Of a stretch of DNA of 64,000 nt, positions 20,986-64,000 are shown piece by piece. The notes under the pieces are model-generated. The model had not been told where the DNA came from and did no database searches. It worked only from the letters and a program-made list of their open reading frames with translations. The first letter of the stretch is position 1, and each line of letters starts with the position of its first letter. This DNA is from Acidobacteriota bacterium (lineage in GTDB: Bacteria; Acidobacteriota; UBA6911; RPQK01; DATIPO01). Position numbers and translations under genes: made by a program. The DNA lies in assembly GCA_035471785.1 (NCBI GenBank), contig DATIPQ010000083.1, positions 10,569-74,568 of the forward strand. The letters are read 5' to 3'.

Positions 20986-23900
20986 TCAGATGGCGCCGGA
21001 GACGCCGTCCTGCGCCTCGGCAGCAGGCGGGCCCTGCCTGAGCCAGAGCAGATTCTCAACTGCTTGGGCCAATCCGGCGACGCTGGCTGCTTCGAAGAAG
21101 GTGCGTAGCGACACTTCGACGCCCAAAGCGTCGCGGATTCGGGAAACCGCCTCAGCCGCCAACAGAGATTGCCCCCCACAGGCGAAGAAATCGTCATGAA
21201 TCCCCACACGGTTAAGAGGCAGAATCTCAAGCCAGACGGCAGCGATGGCTTTCTCGACGGATGTGCGGGGAGCAACGTGGTCCTGGCCTTGGCCGCGGAC
21301 CCCGCGTTCGGGGGCGGGCAGCAAGGCCCGGTCGACTTTGCCGCTCGGCAGCAGGGGCAGGGAGTCCAGCGTCAGGAAAGCGGAGGGCACCAGGGGATGG
21401 GGCAGCATTTCCCTCAGGTGAGCCCTCCATTCTTCCGAGTTGGACTCGCTGTCTGTTTCTGTCACCACGTAGGCTACGATCCGCTTTCCGCTCAAAGGCT
21501 CTTCCAGGACCGCAACTGCGCACTCGCGGACATCCGGGTGGGAGGCGAGGATCGTCTCGATTTCGCCGAGCTCGACGCGGTAACCTCTAATCTTGACCTG
21601 GTGGTCAACCCGTCCCGAGAGTTCGATCTCGCCATCGGGCAGGTATCGTCCCAAGTCTCCCGTGCGGTAGAGTCGGGCGCCTGGCTCAGCGCTGAAAGGA
21701 TTGGGCAAGAATCGTTCTGCCGTAAGTTGGGGGCTGTTCAAGTAACCCCGTGCCACACCCTGTCCGCCGATATGGAGTTCTCCGATAACTCCTTGCGGCA
21801 CCGGCTCTCCGCGGAGGTCGAGAAGATAGACCTGCGTGTTTGCGATCGGCCTGCCGATGGCGGGCGGGCGTGTGGAGTCGCCACCCGGCTCCACGACTCC
21901 GAAGGTAGTCACAACGGAGCACTCGGTCGGTCCGTAATGGTTGACCAGCGCAAAGGCGTCGTCCAGCCGGCCGCGGCGATGGAGTATGTCGCCGCCCGTC
22001 AGCAACGCTTGCAGGGGCGGGGCCTGGGGCCATTGCTCGGCCAGCACTCCCTCGGCCAGAGGGGTGGGCAGAAAGCAATGAGTGATTTCACGCTTTGCCA
22101 GCCAGGAGGGGATCTTGGCCGGCGACCGCCGGATTTCTTCGTCCGCCAGGTGCAGGCTGCTTCCGGCCGTCAGGCAAGCCCACACCTCCCAGGCGCAAGC
22201 ATCGAAGGAAAAGCCAGCCAGTTGGGTGGTCCGATCGTCGGGTCCCAGTCCATAGTATTCCCGATGCCAGGAGACGAGGTTGAGGAGGCCCTGGTGAGTG
22301 ACTCCGACTGCTTTGGGCTTGCCAGTGGAGCCGGAAGTGAAGATGCAGTAGGCGAGATTCAGGGGCTTGCTGCAGCCAATCAGGTCGGCCGGCGATTGTT
22401 GGTCCAGCGCCGCCCGTTGGCTGTCGAGACAACACACCTCGACCGAGCCTGGGGCGACGAGATCCTTGGTCGCCTCCTGGACCAGCACCAGCGACGCCTG
22501 GCTCTCGTCCAGCATGAGGGCCAGGCGGGCCGGCGGCAGTTGGGGATCGAGCGGGACGTAGGCCCCTCCCGCCTTGAGAATGCCCAACAGCCCCACCACC
22601 ATCTCCGGCGACCGCGGCAGGCAGACGGCAACCAGCGACTCGGCGCCGATTCCCAGGCTGCGCAGGTGGCGGGCAAGCCGGTTGGCCCGCCGGTTCAATT
22701 CCTGATAGCTCAGGCACTCGTTTTCGCCGGTTACGGCGGGCGCGTCAGGATTCTCGGCCGCCTGTTCCTGAACTAGCAGATGCACGGCGTCCGCCGCAAG
22801 GGTATCGGCAGCGGTATCGTTCAATCGCGTCAAAAGCCGGCTGCGCTGATGAGGTGTGAGCAGCGGCAAGGCATCGACTACGCCGCTGGGATCCTCCACC
22901 AGCCCCTCAATCAGAACCGAGAAATGGCCGATCAAGCGCCGCAGGGTTTCCCTGCTGTAAAGGGCGGTGGAGTACTCGAAGCCTCCGGAGATGACGCCCT
23001 CGGTTTCAACGATGAAGAGGGAGAGATCGAATTTCGAAGTGCGGTCGTAGGGCTGCAAGCGTGTCATGTCCAGGCCCGACAAGTCTGGGTCCTTGTGCTC
23101 GAGGAGGCTAATGGTGACCTGGAAAATCGGGTGGGCGGCCGGATCGCGTTGCGGACTCAACTCTTCAACCAGTTTTTCGAAGGGAAGGTCCTGATGGGCA
23201 TTGGCGCCCAGAACGGAGGTTCGCACTTGTTCCAGCAGGTCTTCGAAGGTCAGAGCGGGACTGAAGCGCAGGCGCAGAACCAGCATATTCACGAACAGGC
23301 CGACCAGTTCTTCCAGTTGGGTCCGGTCCCGGTTTGCCACCGGATAGCCTATGCAGAGGTCGTCTTGGCCGCTCAGACGATGCAGCAGGATGCCAAAGGC
23401 CGAGGCCAGAGTCATAAACAGGGTCACGTCCTTCTGGCGGCTGAGCCGGCGAAGCCGGTCGCTGACCTCGGCATCCAACTCGAATCCAATCCACGACCCC
23501 TGATGGGACGCCACCGGCGGACGCCTGCGGTCGGACGGCAGATGCAGCGTTTCGGGAACGTCCCGAAGGTAGTGGGTCCAGTAGTTGAGCTGCTCGCGCA
23601 AAGATCCGCCTTCCAGCCGTTCCCGCTGCCAGGCGGCGTAGTCGGCGTATTGCAGTCCCAGTTCGGGCAGAGGTGAATCCTGTCCCGCGCTGAAGGCTTG
23701 ATAGAGAAGGCTCAGTTCACGAGCCAGAATATCCATTGACCAGCCGTCGGCAATCAGATGGTGAAAGGTCAGAAGCAGCACATTTTCATCCTGAGCGATC
23801 TTGATCAAGCGGGCTCGTACAAGGGGTCCCTTGTCGAGTTGAAAGGGCTCCCGGCCTTCCTGCTGTACGATCCTGTGAATCTGAGCCTCGGCATCGCCGT

Positions 23901-26900
23901 TGGCGGCCACTTCGATTAGGGGAAGCGCGATGTTCATTTCTTCGGCGATGATCTGCAGCGGCACCCCTTCGGGAGCCTGGAAGGCGGTGCGCAGACTTTC
24001 ATGGCGCCGCACGATCTCGTTGAGGCTTTTCGTCAGCGCGTCGACGTCGAGCGGTCCCTTGAGGCGCCAGGCGCCAGGCATGTTGTAGAGTCCGCTTTCT
24101 GGATCGAGCTGGTTGAGGAACCACATCCGCTGCTGGGCAAAGGAGGCCGGCGGCGGGCGGCGGCGGTCGGTCCGGGGAATCGGCTCAAGGCGCACCTTTT
24201 GGGCTGCTTCCACCGCCGCGGCCAAGCGGCTCACGGTAGGGGCTGAGAAGAGTTCGCGCAGCAGCAAGTCGCATTGCAGCTTGTGGCGGATACGAGCCAC
24301 AGCCCGGGTGGCCAACAGCGAGTGTCCGCCCAGTTCGAAGAAGTGGTCATCGAGACCGACTCGCCCCACTTGAAGCACTTCGCTGAAGATTTGGGCCAAG
24401 GCGCATTCCGTTGGTGTGCGCGGCGGCAGGTATTCGGTTTCCCGCTTGCTGCCGTCAGGCGCGGGAAGGGCCTTTCTGTCAATCTTGCCGTTGGGCGTCA
24501 GCGGCATCTCCTGCAAGAAGACAATGGCCGCGGGAATCATGAATTCGGGCAGCAGGCTGCGCAGGAACCCGCGGGCCTCGCGCATGATGGTGGCCTCCTC
24601 GCCCGTCACGTAGGCGACCAGGCGGGGCTGGCCTGGAACGTCCTCACGCAATGCCGCCACGCTCTCGGTGGTTCCGGGGCAGCGCCGCAGCGCGCTTTCG
24701 ATCTCGCCCAGCTCGATGCGATAACCGCGGATCTTGACCTGATGGTCGCTACGCCCCAGGAACTCCAGGGAGCCGTCGCCGCGGCGGCGTCCCAGGTCGC
24801 CCGTCCGGTACATCCGGCTTCCCGGTGGGCCGAAGGGATTGGGGAGGAACCGCTCGCCCGTTTGGCTGGGACGATTCCAGTAACCTCGCGCCAGTCCCGC
24901 GCCAGCCAGCCATATCTCGCCGGTGACTCCGATGGGGACGGGCTGCAGGTAGGGGTCGAGAACGTAGACCTGGGTATTGTCGAGAGGATGGCCGATCGAG
25001 ATCCTCTCCGCCCCGTCCACCCGGCAGAGAGTCGCATAAGTCGTATACTCCGTCGGACCGTAGAGATTGTAGATGCGAACTCCCGGCACGGCCTTCCGAA
25101 GTTGCGAAACCAGCTCCTCGCGCAGCGGCTCGCCGGCCAGGTTGATGGTGAGGAGCCCTTGCAGCGACAGTTCCTCATGCAAGAGCGCCTGAGCCGCGGA
25201 AGGCACCGTGTTGAGCAGCGTGGGCGGCGGCGAAAGGTGCCTTTCCGTCAGTGCCAGCGCATTCTTCTCCAGCAGCACCGTGCTTCCGCTCGCCAGGGGT
25301 ACGAACAATTCAAAGATGGAGAGGTCGAAACAAATAGAGGTCGAAAACAGGACCCGTTCCAGGTCCTTCTCCGAGAAGGCCCGCCGGGCCCAGCTGACAA
25401 AGGCGACTGCGTTGGCGTGGGTCAGGGCAACCCCTTTGGGCCGCCCCGTGGAGCCCGATGTGTAGATGCAATAGGCCAGAGTGGAGGGATGCAGCGGCCG
25501 TTGCGGATTGGCGTCGGGCTGCGACTGTTCCCAGGCGCGGTCTTGGTCCAGCACAAGCAGCCGGGCGCCATGTCCTTCCAATCCTTGGGCCAGACCGTCC
25601 TCCGTCAGCAGCAAGTCGGCGCCGCTGTCGGCGATCATCTGAGCCAGGCGTGCGGGAGGATAGGCAGAATCGAGGGGGACGTAGGCTCCTCCCGCCTTGA
25701 GGACGGCCAGCATTGCCACCACCATGTCCAATGAGCGCTCGGTGCAAATCCCCACCAGCTTTTCAGCGGACACCCCCAGGCTGAGGAGATGGTGAGCCAG
25801 GCGGTTGGCCCGGGCGTTCAACTGCCCGTAGCTCAATTCGCCTCCTTCGGTGCTGATGGCCAAGGCTTGCGGCGTTCGTTGCGCCTGTCTCTCGAAGAGC
25901 TTGTGCAGGGTCTTCTCGGCGGGCAGACCTCCTTCTCTATGGTTCCAGTCCGCCAGTAATTGGCGCCGCTCATTTTGGCCGAGCAGCGGAAGGCGGGCCA
26001 GAGCCGCGCCCGGTTCGGCAACGATTCCCCCGAGCAGCACTTCGAAGTGCTCCGCCAGGCGCTCGATGGTTTCCTGTTCGAAAAGGTCAGATGAGTATTC
26101 GAAATCGCCTTCCAGGGCCTGTCCGGCGCCCGTGTCGGAAACGAAAAGCGCCAGGTCGAACTTGGCCGTCTGGTTCTCGGGTTCTACCAGACTGATCTCA
26201 AGACCGGGCAGAGTGACTTCTTTCTGTCCCAGGCTTGGAAGCGTGGTGGCCTTCCCGGAGCGCGAGCCATGGGTGGTGCTGTAGCTGTAGGTGACCTGGA
26301 AGATCGGATGGCGGGACAGGTCCCGCTGGGGCTGGAGTTCTTCCACCAGCTTCTCGAAGGGCAGATCCTTGTGCAGGTCGGCTTCGAGCATCGAATCGCG
26401 CACGCGTGCCAGTTCGTCTCCGAAGGTGTCGCCGGGAGCGATGCGGGTGCGGAGCACCAGGGTATTGGCGAAGATGCCGATCAAGCCTTCGGTCTCCAGG
26501 CGGTCGCGGTTTCCCACCGAGTAGCCGATGCAGAAATCGTCCTGGCCGCTGTAGCGATAGAGGAGCACGTTGAAGGCCGCGGCCATGGTCATGAAGAGCG
26601 TCACCTGTCGGCTTTGGCTGAGTTCGCGAAGGCGCTGGCTCAGTTTCTCGTCGAACTGGAAGGGGACGATTCCGCCGCGGAAGGTTGAGGCCGGCGGACG
26701 CGGCCGGTCGGCGGGCAGGTCAAGCGATCCCGGCGCCCCATTCAAGTAGCGCTGCCAGAACTCGATATGCCCCTGCAGAACTTCGCCCTGCAGCAGATCT
26801 CGCTGCCAGCGGGCGAAATCGGAGTACTGAAAAGGAAGTTCCGCCAGAGGCGGCGGATTGCCTTCGACGAAGCTGCCGTAGAGTATTGAAAGCTCGGTCA

Positions 26901-29900
26901 GAATGACGTCCAGAGACCATCCGTCGGCCACGATGTGGTGGAAGGCGATCATCAGGATGTGCTCGCGGCGGTCCAGGCGCAGAAAGCTGATGCGGATCAT
27001 CGGTCCGCGCACAAGATCGAAAGGCTGGCTGACGTCTTCTTGCAGCCGCAGTTGCGCCTCCGCTTCCGGATCGTCCGCAACGGACAGATCGACCATGTCC
27101 AGAGGCAGTTCGCCCTGATCGAGGACCACGGGTACCGGCCTTCCGTCGACTTCGGTAAAGACGGTGCGCAGCACGTCGTGGCGACGCACGATCTCTTGGA
27201 GGCTGCGCTCAAGAGCGGTTGCATCCAGCGGCCCGCGCAGGCGCCAGGCGACGGCGACGTTGTAGAGTTCGCTCTCGGGCTCGAACTGATCGAGGAACCA
27301 CATCCGCTGCTGGGCGAAGGAAGCCACCAGCGGCAGCGCGGGATCGGCCCGTCCGATGGTATCGTCGCCGACCACTTGAGCATCGAGTACGATGCGCGCC
27401 AACTCGGCAACCGAGGGCGCCACAAAGAGCTCGGAGAGCCGCACCTCGGCATGCAGCGACTTGCGGATGCGCGCGATGACCTGGGTGGCCAGCAGCGAAT
27501 GCCCCCCGAGATCGAAAAAGTTGTCGTGAATGCCCACCCGCGGGACCTTGAGGACGTCGCTCCAGATTTCGGCGAGCAAGCCTTCGGTGGGCGTGCGCGG
27601 CGGTGCGTAGGGGGTGCCGGTATCCCTCTTGGAACCAGGCGCGGGCAGAGCCTTGCGGTCGATCTTGCCGTTGGGCATCAAGGGCAGTGCATCAAGGAAG
27701 ATGTAAGCGGCCGGCAGCATATAATCCGGCAGGGTCTCTTTCAATGCCTCCCGCAGACGATTCTGAGACGGCTTCTCGGCCACGACGTAGGCCATCAGCC
27801 GGCGGTCGCCCGAGGGCTCGTCGGGGGCCACCACAACGGCCGCGCTGACGCCGTCACAGCGCAGCAGCGCGCTTTCGATTTCACCCAACTCGATGCGGTA
27901 GCCGCGGATCTTGACCTGATAGTCGATTCGGCCTAGGAACTCGATTGAGCCGTCGGGAAGATATCTGCCCAGATCGCCGCTCCGGTACATGCGCGCCCCC
28001 GCTGGTCCGAATGGGTTGGGCAAAAAGCTCTGCGCCGTCAGTCCGGGCTGTTGCCAATAGCCTCGGGCCAGCCCCGCGCCGGCGACATAGATCTGGCCGG
28101 GCGAGCCGATCGGAACCGGCTTCATGTGCTCGTCGAGGAGGTAGATCTTAGTATTGGTCACCGGTCGTCCAATAGTGACCTTAGAGCGCCCGTCGACCTG
28201 GCAGAAAGTAGTGTAGACGGTATTCTCGCTGGGTCCGTAGAGGTTGTAGACACGTGCTTGAGGAGCCAGTCCGATGATCTGCTGAACCAATCGGCGCTGC
28301 AAAGGTTCGCCCGCCAGGTTGATCACTTTGACCGAGCGGGGAATGGCGCCGGCATCGACAAGGGCTTGCGCTGCCGACGGCACCGTGTTGATGAGAGTCG
28401 GCCAAGGCCCGGCCCAAGACTCGGTCAGGGCCAGGGCATCACGGACAAGGATCAGCGAAGCGCCGGCGGCCAGCGGCGAGAAAAGTTCGAAGATAGACAG
28501 GTCGAAACAGATGGAGGTCGAAAGCAGCATGCCCTCCAGCTCATCCCCGAAAGTCCGCTCGGCCCAGGTAAGACAAGCCACAGCACTGCTGTGCTGCAGG
28601 GCAATGCCCTTGGGATTTCCGGTCGATCCGGAGGTGTAGATGCAATAGGCGAGATTGCCCGGCTTGGCTCCGCAGTCCGGATTAGCGGTTGGATTGGACT
28701 CGATCGACGACCGGTCGCTGTCCAGGAGGAGGACGTCGAGATCGTCGCTGGGCAGCAGTGGCGACAGACTCGACTCGGTCACCAGAACGGAGGCGCGGCT
28801 GTCAGCCAGCATGAAGGCCAGGCGGGCGGCGGGATAGGTGGGATCGAGCGGCACGTAGGCCCCGCCGGCCTTAAGGATTCCCAGGATGCCGGCCACCAGG
28901 TCAAGCGAGCGGTTGAGGCAGATGCCCACCAGGGTGTCTGGCTCCACTCCCAAGGAGCGCAGCTGATGGGCGACCTGATTGGCGAGGGCATTGAGCGAAC
29001 CGTAGCTGATCGACTTTTCGCCCATGACGACGGCAGTGGCCTCGGGCTTGCGTTCGGCCTGCCACTCGATAAGTTCATGAATGCATGCCTGGGGAAAGTC
29101 GAGTTCCGCTCGGTTCCAATCCACAACGATCTGCCGCAACTCGGGCGGAGTGAGCAAGGGCAGGTCTGCGACGGACGCACCGGGATCGCCGGCGATTCCC
29201 TTCAGGAGGGTTTTGAAGTGCCGGGCCAGCCGCTCGATGGTGGCATGCTGGAAGAGACCGGTGGCGTATTCGAAGCCTCCTTGGAGCCCTCCGGCTGTCT
29301 CCGAGAAGAAGAGCGACAGGTCGAACTTGGCCGTGCGGTCATCGGGTTCGATCTGAGTCAGCTTCAGCCCAGGGAGCTTCAGGTCGTCCTCGGCCAGATA
29401 GCTGAAGAGGACTTGGAACAGAGGCTGACGGGAAAGCTGCCGTTGGGGGCGCAGTTCGGCAACCAGCCGGTCAAAGGGCAGATCGCGGTGTTCATAGGCC
29501 TCCAGCAAGCGCTTCCGCACCTGGCTGAGGACCTGCTTGAAGGAGGGGTTGTGCGACAAGTCGGCGCGCACCACTACGGTGTTGAGGAAAAAGCCCACCA
29601 GGTCCTCTGCTTCGCGATGTCCGCGGCCATCGACTGGAACCCCGATGCAGATGTCTCTTTGCCCGCTCCAGCGAGCGAGCAGGAGGTGGAATGCGGCCAG
29701 CAAAGTCATGAAGAGGGTCGAGCCGTGCTGGCGGGCTATATGCCGCAGAGCAGTCTCGGTCTGAGGCGCCAGGGAGAACTCGACCACTCCGCCCCTGAAG
29801 TCGGGCACGGCCGGACGCACGAAGTCGAAAGGCAGGTCGAGGCTGTCAGGCGCATCGGCCAGACGCGTCCTCCAGTAAGAGAGCTGTCTGTCGAGAATAT

Positions 29901-30666: not shown

Positions 30667-30674
30667 GGCGCCCC

Positions 30675-34691: not shown

Positions 34692-34693
34692 GT

Positions 34694-39697: not shown

Positions 39698-39727
39698 AGA
39701 AGCAGCCCTCCAGCCCGAGGCATCGGA

Positions 39728-39766
39728 GAGGATGGAGGGCGGCATTGGTCATCGCCCTCCATCCTC
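39728..39766 (-). promoter_or_regulatory. Perfect 14-bp inverted repeat (stem-loop) between the small ORF and the loading NRPS
   Basis: GAGGATGGAGGGCG (39728-39741) and CGCCCTCCATCCTC (39753-39766), separated by an 11-nt loop. GC-rich, with no following U-tract on the minus-strand transcript. Confidence 0.6.
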
Positions 39767-42581: not shown

Positions 42582-42704
42582 GCCTCCTCCTCGGCAATTG
42601 AAGCCTCTTTGTGCATGATCTACCGTCGTCTTGGAATCCCGAGGCCGAGTAGCATCCGTCATCTCGCTTCAGCTTCTGATCCGATCAGCATCGAGACAGG
42701 TGTC

Positions 42705-45761: not shown

Positions 45762-45767
45762 CAGTCT

Positions 45768-48534: not shown

Positions 48535-48669
48535 TAAGTCTCGGCTAACCTTGAAGAATTCTCAGAACCGGGAAGAATGTTAGCGGCGGACTGGTCTCGT
48601 TTCGTTGCCGGCACGTATCAAGCGCCGTTCCCGCAAGGACGAATGAAAAAGGAGGCTGAGGAAGAAGGT

Positions 48670-52921: not shown

Positions 52922-52949
52922 TTTCCTTCAAGTCTCCTTTCAGGGCTCC

Positions 52950-53804: not shown

Positions 53805-53816
53805 CGCGACTTCCTT

Positions 53817-57530: not shown

Positions 57531-60500
57531 GTTCGACGATCTCCTCAAGTAATGCGTTGTACCTTCCCAACAAAGCCCCGGCCGCCGTGCCCGAGCCGAG
57601 CCTGCCCTTAAGCGTCAGTTGCCCGCTCAAGCCGCTGTCGGACATTGCCAGGTAGAGAATGAGGTCGTAGTCGTGCACCGCCGACTTGAAAAAGCCGGAC
57701 TGGGCCTCAACCGGCGCCGGCTCGGTGGTCAGCCCGGCGAAGGCGTTCATTTCGGCAGGCTGTTCATCGAAAAGGAAGAAGGCCTGAGCCAGTGCGCTCC
57801 GTTCTATTCCGGACTCCGTACTCAGGCGTCGCATCAGTTCCTCGAAGGGGACATCGTGATGTCCGCAGGCGTGCAGGAACGACTCGCGCACCCGGCGCAG
57901 CGCTCCCAAGGGCGATTGCCGGGGAGAAACCCTGGTGCGCAGAACCAGCGTATCCGTAAGCGGACCCACCATGTTTTCGAGCGGGCGCTGATGACGCGAC
58001 GCCAGATTGGTGGCCACGCGGACGTCGCAACTCCCGCCTTGCCGCTGAAGAAGCCTTTTCAAGGCCGAGAGCAAGACCACGAAGAGGGACGTCTGCTCGC
58101 GACGGGCCACTTTTGCCAGTTTCATAGAGAGAGCAGGTGCGATCTTGAGGGGATAGCTTTCCACCCCCTCCTCGGAGCCGTCCCGCGCCGGACGCCAAGA
58201 AAAGCGCATGCGCTCCAGTGGCGGCTCCAGGATGCTTTTCCATTGCGCCACCTGGCCGTCGAAAAGGCCTTGCTCCAGGCACTCCCTCTCCCAGAAGGCG
58301 TAATCGCCAAAAGTGAGGGAGGGCCGAGTAAGGGGCGAATCCAGTCCTCTGGCAATGGCCTCATAGTCGGCGGCGAATTCCCGCCCTAACACGCCCAGGC
58401 TCCATTCATCGGCCACGATGTGGTGGGCCACCAAAGTCAGGACATGGTGATCTTGCTGCAAACGGGCGATCATGAAACGGGCACACGGACCTCTCGCCAG
58501 GTCAAAGGGCCTGGCAGCCTCTGATTGAGCCGCCTCGAGCAAAAGGCGTTTCTCCTGCTCGTCGCGAATGTGTGCGAAATCGAAAAGGGCGGCCTCAACA
58601 CAGGTGCCGTCGTCCCACTGCTGCCAGAGCCTTCCGTCCCGCAGATCGAACTTGGCGCCGAGAATCGGGTGCCGCCGCGACAGTGCTTCCAGAGCCTGCT
58701 TGCCCGCGGCCAAGTCGAAGGGGCCTCTGAGAGCGAAGGAGCTGGCGATGTTGAGAAAGTGCGGGTTCTCAGCCGTCCGATCCACTGACCAGAAATGGCG
58801 CTGCACCAGCGTCGTCGGCGAGGCGGCGGCGGAACGGGCCCGCAAAGGCGGCAACCTCTTGGCAAGGCCCCGCGAGCGGTCAACTTCCGCTGCCAGCTCC
58901 GAAACGGTCGGATGCTTGAGGATGGCCTGCAGAGGCAAGGCAACGCCTAGGTCCTCGTTGATCCGGGCCATAACGCGGATGCCGATCAATGAATGTCCGC
59001 CCAAGTCGAAGAAATGGTCGTGAACGCTGAGCCGCTCCAGGCTGAGGAGTTGCTTCCAGATTTCGCACAGCCGCCGCTCGGTTTCAGTTCGGGGTGACCG
59101 GTCGGCGGCGGCTATGCCTCTTGAGTCAGTTGTCTGGAGGCCAGAGACGTCTACCTTGCCCTGGGCCGTCAACGGAGTGTCGGCGATACGTCCGATGGTG
59201 AGGAGAGGCTTCGATTGGGGCAGCAGCACGGCCAGGAGCCGCCTGACGGATTTGAGGTCAAGACCTTCGTAGCTAGCCGTGACAAAGGCCCTCAGACCTG
59301 CACCGGAGTCCTTATCCCTTACGATCCATGCGTCGTCGATGCCTTGGCAATGCAGCAACGCGGCTCTGACCTGGGCGCCATCGATGAGCATCCCATCGTC
59401 CTCCAGCACCTCGTCGTCGCGTCCCCAGAATTGCAGGTCGCCGTTCTCCAAACAGCGCACTCGGTCACCGGTCCGGCAGAGACGCTTGTCTGGAATGTCT
59501 CCATGAGGCGGAGGGGTGAATGTTTCAGCGGTTTGTCGAGGCCGATGAAGATAACCGCGGGCCAAGCCGGCCCCGGCCAAGTAGAGTTCGCCCACCACTC
59601 CGGCCGGAACGGGAAGGCCGCGCTGATCCAAGACGTAGCAGCGGGTGTTTGAAATGGGCCGGCCGATGGCCGGCGCTTGCCCGGGCCGCCGCAACTTGCA
59701 GGCGGCAAAGGCCCCGGCCTCGACAAGTCCGTAGAGGTCGTAGACCCGCAAGGAGCCGGCCGCCTGCTGACAGACCTGATCGGCGAGAGCGGTTTCGAGG
59801 CGTTCGCCGTAGAGATTGACCACCCGCAAGGACTCGGGCAAGGCCTCAGGGTGCTTCCGCAACAGAACCCGCACGCTCCCCGGTGTCGTGTTCGCCATCG
59901 TGACGGAATCCCTTGCCGGCAGGAAAGGAAGGGAGAGGGCGTTCTCGGCCAGCACCAGACTGTGCCCGGAGCAGAGCGGAACGAAGATTTCGAAGAGTGA
60001 GGGGCCGCGGCAAAGCGAGCAGGAGGCGAGCACTGCGGCAAGATCCTCGGCCGGGTAAAAGCCGTGGGCCCAGTCGAGGAGCGAAGTGACGCTTCGATGC
60101 TCGATCATGACCATCTTCGGAATGCCGAGATAATCTCGCCCGGAGAGCATGATGCAGGCTAGACTCTCGGGGGCTGCCGGCAATCCGCGATCAAGCGGCG
60201 GGGCATCCCCCTCGTCCGGCAGCAGCACCTCTCCCTCCCATCTTGGGAGAGATTCGGCCACCTCGCCTTCAGCGACCAGGACCTGGGTGCAGCACTGGTC
60301 GAGCAGAGCTTGGATTTTCAGCAGCGGATAGTGAGGCTCGATGCAGATGAAAGCGGCGCCCGCCTTAAGGACGCCGAGAAGGCTGGCGATTAGCCGCGGC
60401 GTGCGCCGCATGCACAGGGCCACCACCTGTCCCGGCCTCACGGACCGGTCCAACAGCCGGCCTGCCAGTCTGTTGGCTTCATCGTTGAGTCTGCTGTACG

Positions 60501-62136
60501 AGATGACCTCCTGCCCAAAGCGGACAGCCACAGCCTCTGGCCGTTCCCGAACGCGGGCCTCGAACAACTCGTGAAGACAGCTCGTCTCGATGTCTTGGGT
60601 GCTTTCAGCGTCCCTCCATCGCCACAGCATCAGGTCTCTTTCCGGCGGAGTCAGGAGAGGGGCGGTTGTGATGCATCCGTGAGGATTACGGGCCATTTCC
60701 GTCAACACCAGCTCAAAGTGGCCGGCCATGCGTCGGACCGCCCTGCGATCAAAAAGGTGATGAGGATATTCGAAGATGCCGTTCAGTCCGGCTTCGCTTT
60801 CCTGCAGCGAAAGCAGGAGGTCGAACTTGGCGGTTTGAGTTTCGACTTCTCTCAAGTCGGCCCGCAGTCCGCGGAACTCATATCCCTGCGAGGAGGCTTC
60901 GGTGAAGGAAAGCATGACTTGAAAGAGGGGTCCGCTACGCGGCGGGTTTTGCCGGGCGAGTTCTTCAGCCAGAGTCTCGATGGGCAGGTCCTGATGCTCG
61001 AAGGCTTCCAGCGCCGCGGCACGCTCGCCCGCCAGCACGTCCTGCCAGGTATCTGAAGGCCTGAGCGGATTGCGCAGCACGATTGTATTGCCGAAGTAGC
61101 CCATCAGGGCTTCGGTTCCGGGCAAAGTCCGGCGGATGACGGGCGTGCCGATTAACACGTCGGTCAGTTCAGTGTATCGAAGGAGCAGAATGCGGAAAGC
61201 GCTGACCAGGAGCATGAACCGCGTCGCCTGCAGGCTCCGGCCGACCTCGGCCAGGCCGGCGCCGAGTTGCTTTGAGATGTGAAAAGACACCCGTTCGCCA
61301 CGAACTTCTTCCGGGGGAGCGCAAAAAGCAGCGAAAGGCAGTCTCACGGGGGTCCATTGTCCGCTGAGCTTTTGCCTCCAATAGGCCAGGAGCTTCTCCT
61401 TGCGAGCCCCCTTCAAGTGGCCTTGCTCCCACACCGCGAAGTCGGCGTAACTCAGTGCCGGTTCGGGCAGGGAAGCTTCTGGTGCTTGGTAGAATGCGGC
61501 CAATTCGCGCAGAAATATGGAAACCGAAGAGACGTCCGCCACGATGTGGTGCAGCTTGACGAAAAGCCAATGAAGCTGATCGTTCTGCCGAAACAGACGT
61601 GCTTGAAATGGGGCGCGCTGAGCCAGGTTGAAGGGCTTTGAGGCATCCTCGCTCATCAGCCTCCAGGCAGCGGCTTCATCTGCGACCTCCTCAGCAGGCA
61701 GATTGCAAGGGGCCCTATCGACGACCTGCATCGGACCGTCCGGCGTCTCCACGAAATAGGTCTGCAGGACTTCTTGCCGGCGTCGGACCCGGCTCAAGGC
61801 GCCCACCATCGAGGACACTCTCAGAGGACCCTCCAGCTTGAGCGTGAATGCAATGTTGTAAGCCGGACTGAGGGGCGCCAGTTTCCACTGCGCCCACATC
61901 CGCTGCTGTCCTGAGGAAAGCGGGAGCGTATGGCTACGGTCGGCCCTGGGAACGGCTTGCGGCAGTGAGCGGAGGGCCGATCCCAGACGTTCGAGAAGCT
62001 GCTCGCGATGCTTTCGAAGCCGCCTCCTGCAGCTTTCATCGAGGGCGCCTGGCGGAGCTTGGTACCTAAGCCTGTCCCCCTCGGCCCAGATTCGGACTTG
62101 CCGTTGGCGCAACTCAGCCAGAAATTGCTCAATCAT
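57514..62136 (-). CDS. NRPS dock-C-A(degenerate)-T-C
   Basis: N-terminal TubC-type dock, HHIVADVSS (C), degenerate A domain, FFDLGGHSL (T) and HHIVADEWS (terminal C). The start is set at MIEQF (62136), 24 nt after the mbtH-like stop. Confidence 0.9.
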   Translation of the reverse strand: MIEQFLAELRQRQVRIWAEGDRLRYQAPPGALDESCRRRLRKHREQLLERLGSALRSLPQAVPRADRSHTLPLSSGQQRMWAQWKLAPLSPAYNIAFTLKLEGPLRVSSMVGALSRVRRRQEVLQTYFVETPDGPMQVVDRAPCNLPAEEVADEAAAWRLMSEDASKPFNLAQRAPFQARLFRQNDQLHWLFVKLHHIVADVSSVSIFLRELAAFYQAPEASLPEPALSYADFAVWEQGHLKGARKEKLLAYWRQKLSGQWTPVRLPFAAFCAPPEEVRGERVSFHISKQLGAGLAEVGRSLQATRFMLLVSAFRILLLRYTELTDVLIGTPVIRRTLPGTEALMGYFGNTIVLRNPLRPSDTWQDVLAGERAAALEAFEHQDLPIETLAEELARQNPPRSGPLFQVMLSFTEASSQGYEFRGLRADLREVETQTAKFDLLLSLQESEAGLNGIFEYPHHLFDRRAVRRMAGHFELVLTEMARNPHGCITTAPLLTPPERDLMLWRWRDAESTQDIETSCLHELFEARVRERPEAVAVRFGQEVISYSRLNDEANRLAGRLLDRSVRPGQVVALCMRRTPRLIASLLGVLKAGAAFICIEPHYPLLKIQALLDQCCTQVLVAEGEVAESLPRWEGEVLLPDEGDAPPLDRGLPAAPESLACIMLSGRDYLGIPKMVMIEHRSVTSLLDWAHGFYPAEDLAAVLASCSLCRGPSLFEIFVPLCSGHSLVLAENALSLPFLPARDSVTMANTTPGSVRVLLRKHPEALPESLRVVNLYGERLETALADQVCQQAAGSLRVYDLYGLVEAGAFAACKLRRPGQAPAIGRPISNTRCYVLDQRGLPVPAGVVGELYLAGAGLARGYLHRPRQTAETFTPPPHGDIPDKRLCRTGDRVRCLENGDLQFWGRDDEVLEDDGMLIDGAQVRAALLHCQGIDDAWIVRDKDSGAGLRAFVTASYEGLDLKSVRRLLAVLLPQSKPLLTIGRIADTPLTAQGKVDVSGLQTTDSRGIAAADRSPRTETERRLCEIWKQLLSLERLSVHDHFFDLGGHSLIGIRVMARINEDLGVALPLQAILKHPTVSELAAEVDRSRGLAKRLPPLRARSAAASPTTLVQRHFWSVDRTAENPHFLNIASSFALRGPFDLAAGKQALEALSRRHPILGAKFDLRDGRLWQQWDDGTCVEAALFDFAHIRDEQEKRLLLEAAQSEAARPFDLARGPCARFMIARLQQDHHVLTLVAHHIVADEWSLGVLGREFAADYEAIARGLDSPLTRPSLTFGDYAFWERECLEQGLFDGQVAQWKSILEPPLERMRFSWRPARDGSEEGVESYPLKIAPALSMKLAKVARREQTSLFVVLLSALKRLLQRQGGSCDVRVATNLASRHQRPLENMVGPLTDTLVLRTRVSPRQSPLGALRRVRESFLHACGHHDVPFEELMRRLSTESGIERSALAQAFFLFDEQPAEMNAFAGLTTEPAPVEAQSGFFKSAVHDYDLILYLAMSDSGLSGQLTLKGRLGSGTAAGALLGRYNALLEEIVEHAFAR
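59077..60579 (-). other. Adenylation-like domain with degenerate core motifs (approximate bounds)
   Basis: A3 reads LACIMLSGRDYLGIPKMV (60109-60162) instead of LAYxxYTSGSTGxPKG. The A4 FDxS motif is absent (CRGPSLFEIF). A5 reads DLYGLVE. A8 reads GRDDEVLEDDGMLIDG. A6 (GELYLAGAGLARGY) and A7-like CRTGD are retained. Confidence 0.7.
61972..62136 (-). other. TubC-type N-terminal docking domain
   Basis: MIEQFLAELRQRQVRIWAEGDRLRYQAPPGALDESCRRRLRKHREQLLERL. Confidence 0.6.
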
Positions 62137-62162
62137 CTGAGGCTTCCTGTCCTGGAGAGGAA

Positions 62163-62384
62163 TCACCCGGCAGATTCGGCGGCCTCCATGCTCTTGCGCA
62201 GGCTGGCGGGGCGCATGTCGGTCCAAAGTTCGCCGATGCGCTCCAGGCAGTCCTCTTTGGGAGCTGCCGATCCCACGGTTTCCCAGCCGTCCGGGACAGG
62301 CATGTCGGAACGCCAAATGGAGTACTGTTCTTCGTGGTTGCGAACCACGTAATAGAGGTCATCGCTACTGTTGTTGTCGGTCAT
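62163..62384 (-). CDS. MbtH-like protein
   Basis: YYVVRNHEEQYSIWRSDMPVPDGWETVG...CLERIGELWTDMRP matches the MbtH signature (N.E.Q.S.W......P.GW). The start at MTDNN (62384) overlaps the upstream gene by 20 nt. Confidence 0.85.
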   Translation of the reverse strand: MTDNNSSDDLYYVVRNHEEQYSIWRSDMPVPDGWETVGSAAPKEDCLERIGELWTDMRPASLRKSMEAAESAG

Positions 62385-64000
62385 AGATCCGTTCTCCCTG
62401 GTGGTTTTGGAAGACTTCGCCGTCGCTTCGCTCTTCATCCTCCCTCAAGGACTGGCCGAGCACCCGCTCGATAATGTCGCGTTCGCCGAGTTCGGTCCGC
62501 CGCGCCATGGCAAGGGCGGCGCGGCGCCTGTCGGCCTCGTCGCGGTCTTGCGACAGCTTGAAACGGCCGAGGATTTCGTCAATCTCGATTTCAAAGCCCA
62601 CGATGTACCCGATCAGAGTCTCGATTCGGGGATCGTCGGGGCTGAGCCGGAAAGCGCCTATCTCCTGATCGGAATGCTCGGCGATGGCGCAGAGTCCCTT
62701 GACAAGCTCTTCGCGGTCGGTGATCAGACGCGCGAGGCCTTCGACGTGCACGGTGAGCGAGTTCCAAGTGGGAAGTTGGTCGGTGGCATATACGTGGGGC
62801 GAGATGTAGCTGTTGGGCCCGTGAAACAAGGCCGTGACGCACCGCCCTTCAAGAAGCTCGACGTGCGGATTGGCGCGGTCCATATGCCCGAAGAGGACTC
62901 CCTTGGCTCCGCGGCCGCGGTCGAGGATGAGCGGGACCTGCGTTATCACGGGCTCATCCTCCCTGCGCGCCGAGATCAGCGTAGCGAACCTGAACCGCTC
63001 CATCACCGCATAGAGTTTGTCGCTCGAATGCTCCAGGTGGCGCTCAGGCGGATACGCGCCCGATAAGGCCTTCGCCGAACGCTCCTCGGCGGCTGGCGTC
63101 CGCCGACAGATGTCCGCGAAGATCTCTCGCGCGCGGAACGGCAACAGCGACATCAGCGTCTCGCCGATGCCAAAGGAGGACTCACCCAGCCCCTGGGCGT
63201 AGAGTCCGCAGCCCATCTCAGGGTCGGTCTGCAGCCGGTGACGGCGTGAAAGAAGGAGTCTGCCTTGGGAGTCCTTCTTGCACAGGGGCAGCACCTCGGC
63301 AAAGATTTCAGGATCGAGGGAGCGATCATATCCGGTGCTCAGCACAACGCCGTCGAAGCTCATCGAACTTGGCGAGGCGCCATATTTTGCGTCTACCGTC
63401 AGGCGCACTTTTTCCTCGCCCGCCTGAATCGCCTGCACACGCGAAAAGGGATGAATGTAGAGACGTTGGCGGCCTTTAACCTCGTCCAGATAACTGCTGC
63501 GGTAGAGGTTTTCAAGCAAGCTCAGCTCGATGACGCCGTAGTTGGTGGTCCGCAATTCCCGTAGAATCGCCGCTCGTTTCTCGGGGCTATAGTTACGAAA
63601 GGCGTCCGCATGCCTGGAGGAGAAGTGCTCGTTGACGAAAGGGCTGTCGTCCGTGGGGCGCGGAGCCGAGCCGGAAATCAGCATGTGTATGCTCGCCCGC
63701 GGGTAGCGTTGATGCAGGTATTCGAGGATCTCGCCGGCACTCTGGCCCCCGCCCACGACTGCGAAATCGTAGCTCCTCCGATGGTCCTCAAACTGTCTGG
63801 GGAAGTGGGGAAGAAATCTGCTCGAATGCACTACCCGGTCAGAGCAGCAAGCCGTCCCTGAGGGGATTCGGGGACGGCCTCCGGGAGCATAGACGATGTT
63901 CTGTGCCAAGTGCTGAGCGGTGTCTCCCGTGGCTGTCTTCGTGACCTCCACGCAAAAGCACCAGGGCACGGTCTCCCCCTTTCGGGTCAGGAGCGAGACC
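62365..64000 (-). CDS. Fusion protein: L-ornithine/L-lysine N-hydroxylase (IucD/PvdA/KtzI family) + PaiB/KtzT-like domain; 5' end outside window
   Basis: The visible N-part has HSSRFL, FAVVGGGQSAGEI, GVVLSTGY and LYAQG of the flavin N-hydroxylase family. The reading frame stays open to the window edge, so the FAD-binding N-terminus is missing. Confidence 0.75.
   Translation of the reverse strand, partial: VSLLTRKGETVPWCFCVEVTKTATGDTAQHLAQNIVYAPGGRPRIPSGTACCSDRVVHSSRFLPHFPRQFEDHRRSYDFAVVGGGQSAGEILEYLHQRYPRASIHMLISGSAPRPTDDSPFVNEHFSSRHADAFRNYSPEKRAAILRELRTTNYGVIELSLLENLYRSSYLDEVKGRQRLYIHPFSRVQAIQAGEEKVRLTVDAKYGASPSSMSFDGVVLSTGYDRSLDPEIFAEVLPLCKKDSQGRLLLSRRHRLQTDPEMGCGLYAQGLGESSFGIGETLMSLLPFRAREIFADICRRTPAAEERSAKALSGAYPPERHLEHSSDKLYAVMERFRFATLISARREDEPVITQVPLILDRGRGAKGVLFGHMDRANPHVELLEGRCVTALFHGPNSYISPHVYATDQLPTWNSLTVHVEGLARLITDREELVKGLCAIAEHSDQEIGAFRLSPDDPRIETLIGYIVGFEIEIDEILGRFKLSQDRDEADRRRAALAMARRTELGERDIIERVLGQSLREDEERSDGEVFQNHQGERIYDRQQQ
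62455..63057 (-). other. PaiB-family (FMN_bind_2-like split-barrel) C-terminal domain
   Basis: FRFATLISA...ITQVPLILD...LFGHMDRANPH...ALFHGPNSYISPHVY...LPTWNSLTVHVEG...GFEIEIDEILGRFKLSQDR follows the PaiB pattern. The heme-dependent piperazate synthase KtzT/PzbB belongs to this fold family. Confidence 0.7.

What the first reader, a model, noticed from the sequence alone, without database searches (positions are those of the whole stretch)
20986..64000. About 43-kb one-strand NRPS supra-operon: 8 carrier domains on 5 proteins, two TE termini, gene order not colinear
Every gene from 62438 down to 20986 is on the minus strand. Gaps are mostly under 30 nt, and several start/stop pairs overlap, for example ATGA at 46550-46553 and 4-nt overlaps at 47548-47551 and 44517-44520.

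The NRPS proteins, in transcription order, are:
- dock-C-A*-T-C
- A-T-TE
- A-T-C-A-T (after about 15 kb of tailoring and transport genes)
- C-A-T-TE
- dock-C-A-T-C-A-T-C-A-T

Only one protein begins with an A domain, and two end in a TE. I saw no E domains, no dual E/C N-terminal His motif, no PKS parts and no acyl-ligase or starter-C signature.

So either two assembly lines share one operon, or docking domains impose an order different from the gene order. In the first case these would be a 3-module line (A-T-C-A-T plus C-A-T-TE) and a 5-module line without its own loading module. I do not recognise the combination with the tailoring set described below as any characterised cluster. The right boundary lies outside the window.
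Basis: partly seen in the sequence, partly recalled or inferred. Interest (0 to 1): 0.7.

Follow-up and report, generated by a model that had tools for sequence, protein, structure and literature searches.

The report
Orphan NRPS cluster with amino-acid tailoring cassette
This is a real 43-kb one-strand peptide-synthetase gene cluster from an uncultured soil Acidobacterium; it belongs to an uncharacterised cluster family shared with Rhizobium, Streptomyces and other phyla, and one of its two "terminating" enzymes is most likely a side-workshop that makes a modified proline-like building block.

Summary
Twenty-two consecutive minus-strand genes run from the right window edge to 20986. They include five NRPS proteins with the stated domain orders, 8 carrier domains, 2 thioesterases (TE) and 2 TubC-type N-terminal docks.

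The same gene set, with near-identical adenylation (A) specificity codes, recurs elsewhere:
- on a Rhizobium leguminosarum plasmid, in the same order;
- on a metagenome contig, as a circular permutation;

So this is one conserved, horizontally spread pathway with fluid gene order, not two known pathways side by side.

The A-T-TE protein has a Pro-like code. In every context examined it sits directly next to a SyrB2/CytC3-like oxygenase and a proline-hydroxylase homologue, with a BesC-like diiron oxidase, a membrane diiron enzyme and a PhzF isomerase in the same cluster. This cassette also occurs without the dock-C-A-T-C protein. It most likely tailors and releases an amino acid, leaving C-A-T-TE as the chain terminator. 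The module order remains unresolved.

The "A*" domain is degenerate only in this genome. The fused N-oxygenase/heme enzyme looks NohD-like, not like a canonical piperazate synthase. I found no characterised match. Interest is moderate.

The parts
62365..64000 (-). 3' part of a fused Lys/Orn N-hydroxylase and PaiB/KtzT-family heme protein. It is 693 aa in the overlapping Logan contig, and its start lies about 450 nt beyond the window.
   Evidence: Pfam Lys_Orn_oxgnase plus FMN_bind_2. The open frame runs to the window end. The full gene is seen in L002, preceded by a BTAD regulator. The heme domain is NohD-like at three diagnostic sites.
62163..62384 (-). MbtH-like protein, 73 aa
   Evidence: The sequence carries the MbtH signature. 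Pfam MbtH is assigned to the identical gene call.
57514..62136 (-). NRPS1: TubC_N dock-C-A*-T-C, 1540 aa. The A domain is degenerate and the terminal C is divergent.
54897..57530 (-). NRPS2: stand-alone A-T-TE, 877 aa, with Pro-like code DVQFIAHLVK and an intact TE triad
53817..54698 (-). SyrB2/CytC3-family carrier-dependent Fe/2OG 'chlorinating enzyme' homologue, with H-Q-V in place of H-x-A/G
   Evidence: TIGR01762 scores 311 bits against a cut-off of 226. PDB matches to CytC3 and SyrB2 at E-65. The motif is conserved in all cassette homologues.
52950..53804 (-). Fe/2OG proline (or pipecolate) hydroxylase homologue
   Evidence: Pfam Asp_Arg_Hydrox plus Pro_3_hydrox_C. TIGR04531. PDB L-proline cis-4-hydroxylase at 146 bits and cis-3-hydroxylase at 122 bits.
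52214..52921 (-). Heme-oxygenase-like diiron oxidase (HDO)
   Evidence: Pfam Haem_oxygenas_2. The only PDB and NCBIfam relative of note is BesC, and the match is weak.
51031..52200 (-). Membrane fatty-acid-desaturase-like diiron enzyme (FAD3)
   Evidence: Pfam FA_desaturase. It is conserved next to the HDO and PhzF genes in every relative examined.
50235..51092 (-). PhzF-family isomerase
   Evidence: Pfam PhzC-PhzF. TIGR00654.
49166..50242 (-). Amidinotransferase of the AGAT/SxtG/HsvA family
   Evidence: PDB SxtG at E-128, HsvA at E-122 and AGAT at E-113.
48670..49026 (-). GNAT acetyltransferase, possibly for tailoring or self-protection
   Evidence: Pfam Acetyltransf_3.
47548..48516 (-). Membrane FA-desaturase-like diiron enzyme (FAD2). 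It pairs with the amidinotransferase in many phyla.
46550..47551 (-). GntB-like membrane diiron enzyme, an arginine gamma-hydroxylase relative
   Evidence: NCBIfam GntB_guanitoxin scores 241 bits, below the equivalog cut-off of 380.
45768..46553 (-). FGE-sulfatase/PvdO-like protein, absent from the homologous clusters
42705..45761 (-). NMT1/NrtA-type ABC transporter: binding protein 44517-45761, permease 43660-44520, ATPase 42705-43667. It is specific to this genome's version of the cluster.
41157..42662 (-). AlgE-type outer-membrane porin (Alginate_exp)
40151..41023 (-). Conserved protein of unknown function, 54% identical to the Rhizobium homologue. In Rhizobium the two FA-desaturase genes lie between it and NRPS3.
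   Evidence: No Pfam, NCBIfam or PDB match. The homologue is seen.
34694..39745 (-). NRPS3: A-T-C-A-T, 1683 aa. Codes are DAESFGDISK (basic amino-acid type) and DVWHQSLEVK (Ser-like). It has a conserved C-terminal tail.
30675..34691 (-). NRPS4: C-A-T-TE, 1338 aa, code DVWFFGC-CK. It directly follows NRPS3 in every relative where the junction was sequenced.
20986..30666 (-). NRPS5: TubC_N dock-C-A-T-C-A-T-C-A-T, 3226 aa. Codes are DLFTNALVYK, DLFTLILTYK and DAWFLGHVVK.

Best explanation
The region is one composite nonribosomal-peptide gene cluster of an uncultured Acidobacteriota bacterium. It belongs to a conserved, horizontally spread and so far uncharacterised cluster family. It has three functional layers.

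**1. A proline-type building-block cassette.**
- It comprises the stand-alone A-T-TE protein (Pro-like specificity code), a SyrB2/CytC3-like Fe/2OG enzyme acting on the carrier-bound amino acid, a proline-hydroxylase homologue, a BesC-like diiron oxidase, a membrane diiron enzyme and a PhzF isomerase.
- It is helped by an MbtH protein.
- A fused N-hydroxylase/heme enzyme probably feeds it from ornithine or lysine.
- In this reading the cassette's TE releases the tailored amino acid. It does not terminate a peptide chain.

**2. A guanidino-amino-acid branch.**
- It comprises an amidinotransferase, two further membrane diiron enzymes (one GntB-like) and a GNAT.
- It probably supplies the basic residue selected by the first A domain of A-T-C-A-T.

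**3. The peptide line proper.**
- A-T-C-A-T hands over to C-A-T-TE, which carries the true terminating TE.
- The two dock-bearing proteins (three modules plus C-A*-T-C) add four more modules, joined to each other and to the core by docking rather than by gene order.
- In this genome the A domain of C-A*-T-C has lost its catalytic motifs. Its carrier must be loaded in trans, most simply by the same-specificity A domains of the three-module protein, or else skipped.

**Shown:** gene content, domain content, conservation and shuffling across genomes, conserved A codes, and the lineage-specific decay of one A domain.

**Inferred:** the release role of the first TE, the substrates, and the order of the proteins.
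For: **One pathway.**
- A Rhizobium leguminosarum plasmid carries all five synthetases and the tailoring genes in the same order, at 50-76% identity.
- ENA contig_47258 has the same set as a circular permutation, with A-T-TE first and dock-C-A-T-C last.
- The specificity codes are nearly identical across phyla.

**The cassette is a unit.**
- The best 120 homologues of A-T-TE all have the same three-domain architecture and are 787-954 aa long.
- In all seven contexts where the downstream flank was sequenced, the gene is followed directly by the SyrB2-like gene and the proline-hydroxylase-like gene.
- HDO, FAD3 and PhzF lie together nearby in those same seven contexts.
- In Streptomyces GCA_014651175 the six genes plus MbtH form an operon of their own, with no adjacent NRPS1 homologue.

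**Enzyme assignments.** TIGR01762 scores above its cut-off, with CytC3/SyrB2 at E-65. Proline cis-4 and cis-3 hydroxylases score 146 and 122 bits. The code DVQFIAHLVK is Pro-like (the code-to-substrate assignment is from established Stachelhaus codes, recalled from memory).

**Precedent (established knowledge).** CytC1-4, Thr1-4, CmaA/B/T, BpsD/OxyD/Bhp and NikP1/NikQ/NikP2 all tailor an amino acid on a stand-alone A-T and release it with a TE.

**NRPS3 to NRPS4.** The two genes are adjacent in all five clusters where the junction was sequenced. The NRPS3 C-terminal tail (SLPxxEVxRRL) and the basic N-terminal helix of NRPS4 are conserved across three phyla.

**A\* decay.** The window copy differs at 63 of 200 A-domain columns that are invariant in the four orthologues, against 9-24 in controls. 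Its dock, C1, T and C2 domains are as conserved as in the others. The orthologues' A code (DLFT/NNAL..K) matches the first two A domains of NRPS5.
Against: - None of the other seven A domains has a Pro-like code. It is therefore unclear which domain would re-activate a released proline-type product, unless the tailoring changes it beyond recognition or the TE couples it directly.
- In this window and in Rhizobium, the terminal C of NRPS1 overlaps the start of A-T-TE by 17 nt. That is what a split C|A-T-TE terminating module would look like.
- The A-T-TE TE has a normal Ser-Asp-His triad and so could release a peptide.
- The first C of NRPS5 is an elongation-type C behind a dock, and its donor is not identified. 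The only conserved T-ending partner is NRPS3, which would make NRPS3 feed two acceptors.
- The SyrB2-like enzyme has Val where proven halogenases have Ala or Gly, so chlorination is not assured.
- No product, transcript or biochemical datum exists.
Confidence: 0.5

Rival explanations
1. Two assembly lines share one cluster. One is a 3-module line (A-T-C-A-T plus C-A-T-TE). The other is a 5-module line (dock-C-A-T-C-A-T-C-A-T, then dock-C-A*-T-C, then A-T-TE), in which the terminal C of NRPS1 condenses the chain onto the tailored residue held by A-T-TE and that TE releases it.
For: - NRPS1 ends in a C domain and overlaps the A-T-TE start by 17 nt, here and in Rhizobium.
- Both TEs have intact triads.
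- The terminal C is strongly conserved among orthologues: 126 columns are invariant in the other four orthologues and the window copy differs at only 6.
Against: - On ENA contig_47258, NRPS1 is the last gene of the operon and lies about 35 kb from A-T-TE.
- NRPS1 orthologues are rare, with 4 found, while A-T-TE and C-A-T-TE orthologues are numerous and share contigs.
- The second line still lacks a loading module, because its first C is an elongation type.
Confidence: 0.25
2. There is a single line that uses all multi-module proteins. NRPS5 passes to NRPS1 through the dock. The terminal C of NRPS1 then condenses the chain onto the first carrier of A-T-C-A-T, and the chain continues to C-A-T-TE, giving a 7-residue product. 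A-T-TE supplies a building block.
For: - It explains the orphan terminal C, the A-start protein and a single chain-terminating TE.
- On ENA contig_47258 NRPS1 follows NRPS5, separated only by a small ORF, the fusion gene and mbtH.
Against: - The donor for the docked elongation-type first C of NRPS5 is again missing.
- The NRPS5 C-terminal tail is not conserved between this genome and Rhizobium.
- NRPS1 and NRPS3 are never adjacent.
Confidence: 0.15
3. This genome's copy of the cluster is decaying and makes nothing, or only a truncated product.
For: - The A domain of NRPS1 has lost motifs A3, A4, A5 and A8, only in this lineage.
- No phosphopantetheinyl transferase gene lies in this copy, whereas Rhizobium, the ENA contig and L080 each have one.
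Against: - All 22 reading frames are intact, including 1540-3226-aa genes.
- The other domains of NRPS1 are as conserved as in the orthologues.
- An A domain of matching specificity is available in trans.
Confidence: 0.1

Closest known systems
Stand-alone A-T plus carrier-dependent Fe/2OG halogenase plus TE sets (CytC1-C4, Thr1-4 for 4-chlorothreonine, CmaA/CmaB/CmaT for coronamic acid, SyrB1/SyrB2)
   Same: An A-T unit with a TE sits next to a SyrB2/CytC3-family enzyme (E-65; TIGR01762 above its cut-off). The units are encoded as a block that supplies a larger pathway.
   Different: - A, T and TE are fused here in one protein.
- The code is Pro-like.
- The iron-site motif is H-Q-V, not H-x-A/G.
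- The block also carries a proline hydroxylase, an HDO, a membrane diiron enzyme and a PhzF isomerase, which none of these systems has.
Kutzneride pathway (KtzI/KtzT piperazate formation; KthP chlorination of carrier-bound piperazate)
   Same: An ornithine N-hydroxylase plus a KtzT-family heme protein, and a carrier-dependent halogenase-like enzyme with an imino-acid-type A domain, all inside an NRPS cluster.
   Different: - The hydroxylase and heme protein are fused.
- The heme domain carries NohD-type, not PipS/KtzT-type, residues at the three sites that control N-N bond formation.
- The host is a Gram-negative phylum.
- The rest of the cluster is unrelated.
Chimeric N-hydroxylase/piperazate-synthase enzymes (Hu et al. 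2019, as cited in PMC11705231 and PMC7347517) and the N-hydroxylamine dehydratase NohD (PMC12576811)
   Same: The two-domain fusion architecture is the same. The heme His and the Thr/Lys dyad are present.
   Different: Arg at AS1, Leu at AS2 and DRDEAD at AS3 resemble NohD (Arg, Val, DLDAER), not PipS (Tyr, Ala, EQPAEV). The product, piperazate versus a dehydration product, is therefore open.
TubC-type N-terminal docking in split NRPSs (tubulysin TubB/TubC; rhabdopeptide and PAX synthetases)
   Same: Two proteins start with a Pfam TubC_N domain ahead of a C domain. Gene order is not colinear.
   Different: The partner C-terminal peptides are not identified. There are two docks and two T-ending proteins, plus a third acceptor (NRPS4) that has only a basic N-terminal helix.
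Guanitoxin GntB and the phaseolotoxin Pht locus (amidinotransferase with fatty-acid-desaturase-like genes)
   Same: Membrane FA-desaturase-like enzymes are paired with guanidino-amino-acid metabolism. One enzyme scores 241 bits on the GntB model.
   Different: The score is below the equivalog cut-off. There is no GntC-type PLP cyclase. Here the enzymes serve an NRPS.

Membership tests
Modular (type I) NRPS cluster | C domains with HHxxxD, A domains with core motifs A3-A10, T domains with GGxS, and TE domains with GxSxG/Asp/His | tested here: met
   Pfam and motif scans. The exception is the A domain of NRPS1, which lacks A3, A4, A5 and A8.
SyrB2/CytC3 carrier-dependent halogenases | Family-level sequence membership | tested here: met
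   TIGR01762 'chlorinating enzyme' scores 311 bits against a cut-off of 226. CytC3 matches at 3e-65 and SyrB2 at 2e-64 over the full length.
SyrB2/CytC3 carrier-dependent halogenases | The carboxylate ligand of the facial triad is replaced by Ala or Gly (H-x-A/G), leaving room for chloride | tested here: inconclusive
   The motif is H-Q-V. The carboxylate is absent, but the residue is Val. This is invariant in the seven cassette homologues outside the window's own genome, whereas a typical relative has H-Q-A.
SyrB2/CytC3 carrier-dependent halogenases | Chloride- and 2OG-dependent chlorination of an aminoacyl-S-carrier | not testable with these tools
   This needs an enzyme assay on aminoacyl-S-NRPS2.
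Piperazate synthase (KtzT/PipS) | PF04299 fold with the heme-binding His and the Thr/Lys catalytic dyad | tested here: met
   FMN_bind_2 at 7.6e-34. GHMDRANPH, LPTWN and FKLSQ align to the NohD and PaiB positions.
Piperazate synthase (KtzT/PipS) | The PipS-cluster residues needed for N-N bond formation: Ala two residues before the catalytic Thr, Tyr 23 residues before the Lys, and an EQPAEV-type loop (PMC12576811) | tested here: not met
   The window has Leu, Arg and DRDEAD. These align residue for residue with NohD Val96, Arg144 and DLDAER. The score is 62 bits to PipS, against 78 to NohD and 84-94 to PaiB.
TubC-type docking NRPS subunits | An N-terminal TubC_N domain above the Pfam threshold | tested here: met
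   52.6 and 46.2 bits against a cut-off of 26.
TubC-type docking NRPS subunits | A matching C-terminal docking peptide on the upstream partner | tested here: inconclusive
   The NRPS3 tail is conserved across three phyla. The NRPS5 tail is not conserved between this genome and Rhizobium. No binding test was possible.
Amidinotransferase (AGAT/SxtG/HsvA) | Full-length similarity to solved family members | tested here: met
   SxtG at 7e-128, HsvA at 4e-122 and AGAT at 5e-113. Catalytic residues and the acceptor substrate were not examined.
GntB (guanitoxin L-arginine gamma-hydroxylase) equivalog | A score above the NCBIfam equivalog cut-off | tested here: not met
   241 bits against a cut-off of 380 for the gene at 46550-47551. 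The other two desaturase-like genes score 23 bits or less. It is a relative, not an equivalog.
Free-proline Fe/2OG hydroxylases | Full-length similarity to cis-4 and cis-3 proline hydroxylase structures | tested here: met
   4P7W at 146 bits and 1E5R at 122 bits, each over about 280 residues. The substrate was not tested.

The most novel reading that the evidence does not exclude
A cluster family that crosses at least five phyla (Acidobacteriota, Pseudomonadota, Actinomycetota, Eremiobacterota, Myxococcota) makes an undescribed peptide.

Its signature residue would be built from proline or ornithine by an unprecedented enzyme set:
- a natural N-hydroxylase/NohD-type heme fusion, which would give NohD its first physiological role;
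- a SyrB2-like enzyme with an H-x-V iron site;
- a BesC-like diiron oxidase;
- a membrane diiron enzyme;
- a PhzF isomerase.

The synthetases would use a branched or trans-loading logic: one initiating protein feeds two acceptors, and a dead A domain is complemented in trans.
Probability: 0.3. Interest if true: 0.7.

Novelty: new variant of a known kind. Interest (0 to 1): 0.45.

Why it matters
**A tractable orphan pathway.** If the reading is right, the finding points to a widespread soil-bacterial natural-product family with no assigned product. A cultivable member, the Rhizobium leguminosarum plasmid, would make it experimentally tractable.

**New enzymology.** The six-gene proline-type cassette recurs in well over a hundred genomes and metagenome contigs. 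It combines enzyme families known for difficult C-H chemistry, so it is a good place to look for new amino-acid chemistry.

**A role for NohD.** The fused N-hydroxylase/NohD-like enzyme offers a testable physiological context for a heme enzyme whose native role is described as obscure.

**A caution for annotation.** Counting TE domains overestimates the number of assembly lines when stand-alone A-T-TE tailoring units are present.

Tried and rejected
- **Starter-C or lipo-initiation for NRPS5: rejected.** Its first C matches elongation C domains at 260-337 bits. It matches the CDA and Rzm starter C domains at only 65 and 42 bits.
- **Terminal domain of NRPS1 as an E domain: rejected.** No E-domain structure appears among its PDB matches, and it is the most divergent of the seven C domains.
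- **TE of A-T-TE as a SyrC/CmaE-type Cys shuttle: rejected.** The nucleophile is Ser, within a normal Ser-Asp-His triad.
- **A docking tail on A-T-TE that could feed the NRPS5 dock: not found.** Its C-termini show no extension specific to clusters that carry NRPS5.
- **Frameshifts as the cause of the degenerate A domain: rejected.** No other frame encodes the motifs, and an independent Logan assembly agrees at 4622 of 4623 bases.
- **Promoter and terminator scans of the intergenic gaps.** Nothing above the shuffled background.
- **PLSDB plasmid search for the Rhizobium replicon.** It is not in that collection; the best hit was only 52%.
- **Ten literature searches.** Topics included A-domain code strings, chimeric piperazate synthases, and GntB or amidinotransferase combinations. 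None found a characterised cluster with this content. Mangotoxin, phaseolotoxin, chalkophomycin and diperamycin were read and set aside as different systems.
- **Resolving the protein order from tails, docks and synteny.** The result was inconclusive.

Full report
**1. What is in the window**

ORF listing, Pfam and NCBIfam scans give 22 consecutive minus-strand genes from the right window edge to 20986. In transcription order they are:

| Gene | Coordinates | Note |
|---|---|---|
| Lys/Orn N-oxygenase fused to an FMN_bind_2 (PaiB/KtzT-family) domain | 62365 to beyond 64000 | 3' part only; frame open to the edge |
| MbtH | 62163-62384 | |
| NRPS1: TubC_N-C-A-T-C | 57514-62136 | |
| NRPS2: A-T-TE | 54897-57530 | |
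| SyrB2/CytC3-like Fe/2OG enzyme | 53817-54698 | |
| Proline-hydroxylase homologue | 52950-53804 | |
| Heme-oxygenase-like diiron oxidase (HDO) | 52214-52921 | |
| Membrane FA-desaturase-like enzyme (FAD3) | 51031-52200 | |
| PhzF isomerase | 50235-51092 | |
| Amidinotransferase | 49166-50242 | PDB SxtG at E-128 |
| GNAT | 48670-49026 | |
| FA-desaturase-like enzyme (FAD2) | 47548-48516 | |
| FA-desaturase-like enzyme, GntB-like | 46550-47551 | 241 bits |
| FGE/PvdO-like protein | 45768-46553 | |
| NMT1-type ABC transporter | 42705-45761 | |
| AlgE-type porin | 41157-42662 | |
| Unknown conserved protein | 40151-41023 | |
| NRPS3: A-T-C-A-T | 34694-39745 | |
| NRPS4: C-A-T-TE | 30675-34691 | |
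| NRPS5: TubC_N-C-A-T-C-A-T-C-A-T | 20986-30666 | |

The largest gaps are 405, 198, 153, 139 and 133 nt. Consensus promoter and terminator scans are uninformative.

There are eight PP-binding domains, two TEs with intact triads and two TubC_N docks. There are no PKS, E or dual E/C features. The one error is that two proteins, not one, begin with an A domain.

**2. Host and boundaries**

A flanking acyl-CoA dehydrogenase shares a 90% cluster with a protein of an Acidobacteriota MAG. The window's own contig is 98 kb. The left flank holds housekeeping genes (PFOR, MutY, RumA-like and others) and two LuxR-type regulators.

An overlapping Logan contig is identical at 4622 of 4623 bases over NRPS1. 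It shows that the fusion gene is 693 aa and is preceded by a BTAD (SARP-type) regulator on the same strand. The right boundary therefore lies about 1.5-2 kb beyond the window.

**3. It is one conserved pathway with fluid gene order**

- **Rhizobium leguminosarum plasmid** (GCA_052947255.1, JBRFOX010000002.1). The order there is two BTAD regulators, fusion gene, MbtH, NRPS1, NRPS2, SyrB2-like, hydroxylase, HDO, FAD3, PhzF, amidinotransferase, GNAT, a Na/H exchanger, a PPTase, the unknown protein, two desaturase-like genes, then NRPS3, NRPS4 and NRPS5. This matches the window's order, at 50-76% identity.
- **Metagenome contig ENA contig_47258.** It has the same set as a circular permutation. The BTAD regulator and A-T-TE cassette come first, then the tailoring genes, NRPS3, NRPS4 (P0243) and NRPS5, then the fusion gene, MbtH and NRPS1 last. 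NRPS1 and NRPS2 are about 35 kb apart.

Stachelhaus codes were extracted by alignment to the GrsA Phe-A segment, a sequence I supplied from memory and checked against its known code. They are conserved across these phyla:

| A domain | Code |
|---|---|
| NRPS3 A1 | DAESFGDISK |
| NRPS3 A2 | DVWHQSLEVK, with close variants |
| NRPS4 | DVWF/YFGC-CK |
| NRPS2 | DVQF(I/V)AHLVK |

Conserved content with shuffled order argues against two independent pathways. It also shows that gene order carries little information about module order.

**4. The A-T-TE protein belongs to a tailoring cassette**

- The 120 best homologues of NRPS2 all have the A-T-TE architecture at 787-954 aa. They come from Rhizobium, many actinomycetes, Acidobacteriota and metagenomes.
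- In all seven contexts where the downstream flank was sequenced, the gene is followed directly by the SyrB2-like and hydroxylase genes. HDO, FAD3 and PhzF lie together nearby in the same contexts, although the two blocks can be inverted relative to each other.
- In Streptomyces GCA_014651175, MbtH plus the six genes form their own operon.
- A-T-TE and C-A-T-TE orthologues share at least nine contigs, judged by matching contig lengths in the hit tables. NRPS1 orthologues are rare: four besides the window.

The enzyme assignments all point to an imino-acid substrate tailored on the carrier:
- The NRPS2 code is Pro-like.
- The hydroxylase is a full-length homologue of proline cis-4 and cis-3 hydroxylases.
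- The SyrB2-like enzyme passes the TIGR01762 cut-off and matches CytC3 and SyrB2 at E-65.

By analogy with CytC1-4, Thr1-4, CmaA/B/T, BpsD/OxyD/Bhp and NikP1/Q/P2 (established knowledge), the simplest role for this TE is release of the tailored amino acid.

Two caveats remain:
- No other A domain in the cluster has a Pro-like code.
- The iron-site motif is H-Q-V, invariant in the cassette, rather than H-x-A/G. Chlorination is therefore not assured.

**5. The first gene is not a safe marker of piperazate**

Fused N-hydroxylase/piperazate-synthase enzymes are known and can make piperazate (PMC11705231, PMC7347517). However, Higgins et al. 2025 (PMC12576811) showed that a sequence relative, NohD, dehydrates N5-hydroxyornithine instead. 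They also showed that Ala at the position two residues before the catalytic Thr, Tyr 23 residues before the Lys, and an EQPAEV-type loop favour N-N bond formation.

The window's domain aligns residue for residue with NohD at these sites:

| Site | Window | NohD | PipS |
|---|---|---|---|
| AS1 | Arg | Arg | Tyr |
| AS2 | Leu | Val | Ala |
| AS3 | DRDEAD | DLDAER | EQPAEV |

It also scores higher on NohD and PaiB than on PipS. I therefore leave both outcomes open: piperazate, or a dehydration product such as P5C or P6C feeding an imino acid.

The amidinotransferase could make a guanidino amino acid for NRPS3 A1. It could also supply ornithine from arginine, as proposed for DpnA in PMC10888640. 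Its pairing with FAD2 recurs in Streptomyces, Xenorhabdus, Kutzneria and Acidobacteriota.

**6. Module order**

- **Firm.** NRPS3 and NRPS4 are adjacent in that order in all five clusters where the junction was sequenced. The acidic C-terminal tail of NRPS3 and the basic N-terminal helix of NRPS4 are conserved in three phyla.
- **Likely.** NRPS5 passes to NRPS1 by docking. On the ENA contig NRPS1 follows NRPS5, separated only by a small ORF, the fusion gene and mbtH.
- **Open: the donor for NRPS5.** Its first C is an ordinary elongation C. The only conserved T-ending protein with a tail is NRPS3.
- **Open: the acceptor of the NRPS1 terminal C.** This C is a divergent but strongly conserved subtype. 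It could act on NRPS2 (overlapping genes here and in Rhizobium) or on the first carrier of NRPS3.

I could not discriminate between these by tails, docks or synteny.

**7. The A\* domain**

The four orthologues keep canonical A3, A4, A5 and A8 motifs, with code DLF(T/N)NAL..K. That is the same class as the first two A domains of NRPS5 (Ala-like, from memory).

The window copy differs at 63 of 200 columns invariant in the others, against 9-24 for controls. Its dock, C1, T and C2 domains are normally conserved. Frameshift artefacts are excluded. The module has probably become dependent on trans loading, or it is skipped.

**8. Comparison with the known, and verdict**

The parts belong to known families: modular NRPS, TubC docking, SyrB2-type enzymes, proline hydroxylases, HDOs, amidinotransferases and NMO-PaiB fusions. 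No characterised cluster with this combination was found in ten full-text searches or among the NCBIfam equivalogs. MIBiG itself was not available.

I rate this a new variant of a known kind: an orphan but widespread NRPS cluster family with an unusual, conserved building-block cassette. Interest is moderate at 0.45. Orphan NRPS clusters are common. On the other hand, the cross-phylum conservation, the cultivable Rhizobium homologue and the unexplained enzyme set make it a reasonable target.

Noticed in passing
window 59100-60600 (A domain of NRPS1): The A domain has lost core motifs A3, A4, A5 and A8 only in this genome. It differs at 63 of 200 columns that are invariant in four orthologues, against 9-24 in controls. 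The dock, both C domains and the T domain of the same protein are normally conserved.
   Followed up: yes
window 54370-54390 (residues about 105-112 of the SyrB2-like enzyme); also L051, L071, L076, L077, L078, L081: The iron-site motif GWHQVETYAIGE (H-x-V where halogenases have H-x-A/G) is nearly invariant (one substitution, T to R, in L051; H-Q-V itself invariant) in every cassette homologue. A more distant relative in L038 has the usual WHQAD.
   Followed up: partly
window 62365-63050: The heme (FMN_bind_2) half of the N-hydroxylase fusion carries NohD-type residues (Arg, Leu, DRDEAD) at the three sites reported to decide between dehydration and N-N bond formation.
   Followed up: partly
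window 47548-50242; L003-L057: The pair of amidinotransferase and FA-desaturase-like enzyme (FAD2) recurs across Acidobacteriota, Streptomyces, Actinomadura, Kutzneria and Xenorhabdus, often with no other gene of this cluster. X. hominickii has three copies.
   Followed up: no
[not shown]
   Followed up: no
[not shown]
   Followed up: partly
window 41157-46553: The FGE/PvdO-like gene, the NrtA-type ABC transporter and the AlgE-type porin are found only in this genome's version of the cluster. Rhizobium has a Na/H exchanger and a PPTase nearby (between the GNAT gene and the unknown conserved gene). No PPTase gene was seen in the window.
   Followed up: partly
window 18657-19385 (-) and 20205-20966 (+): Two LuxR/GerE-type regulators lie just beyond the 3' end of the cluster, one of them convergent with NRPS5. 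Whether they belong to the cluster is unknown. The conserved regulator in relatives is a BTAD protein at the other end.
   Followed up: no
window 30675-30720 and orthologues: The extreme C-terminus of C-A-T-TE (ARxx(F/Y)xE-hydrophobic) is conserved across phyla, beyond the TE His motif. It could be the last TE helix or a recognition peptide.
   Followed up: no
window 7857-11447 (+): A 1196-aa single-chain pyruvate:ferredoxin oxidoreductase and LiaF-like/DUF4097 genes lie in the left flank. This fits a non-proteobacterial soil host.
   Followed up: no
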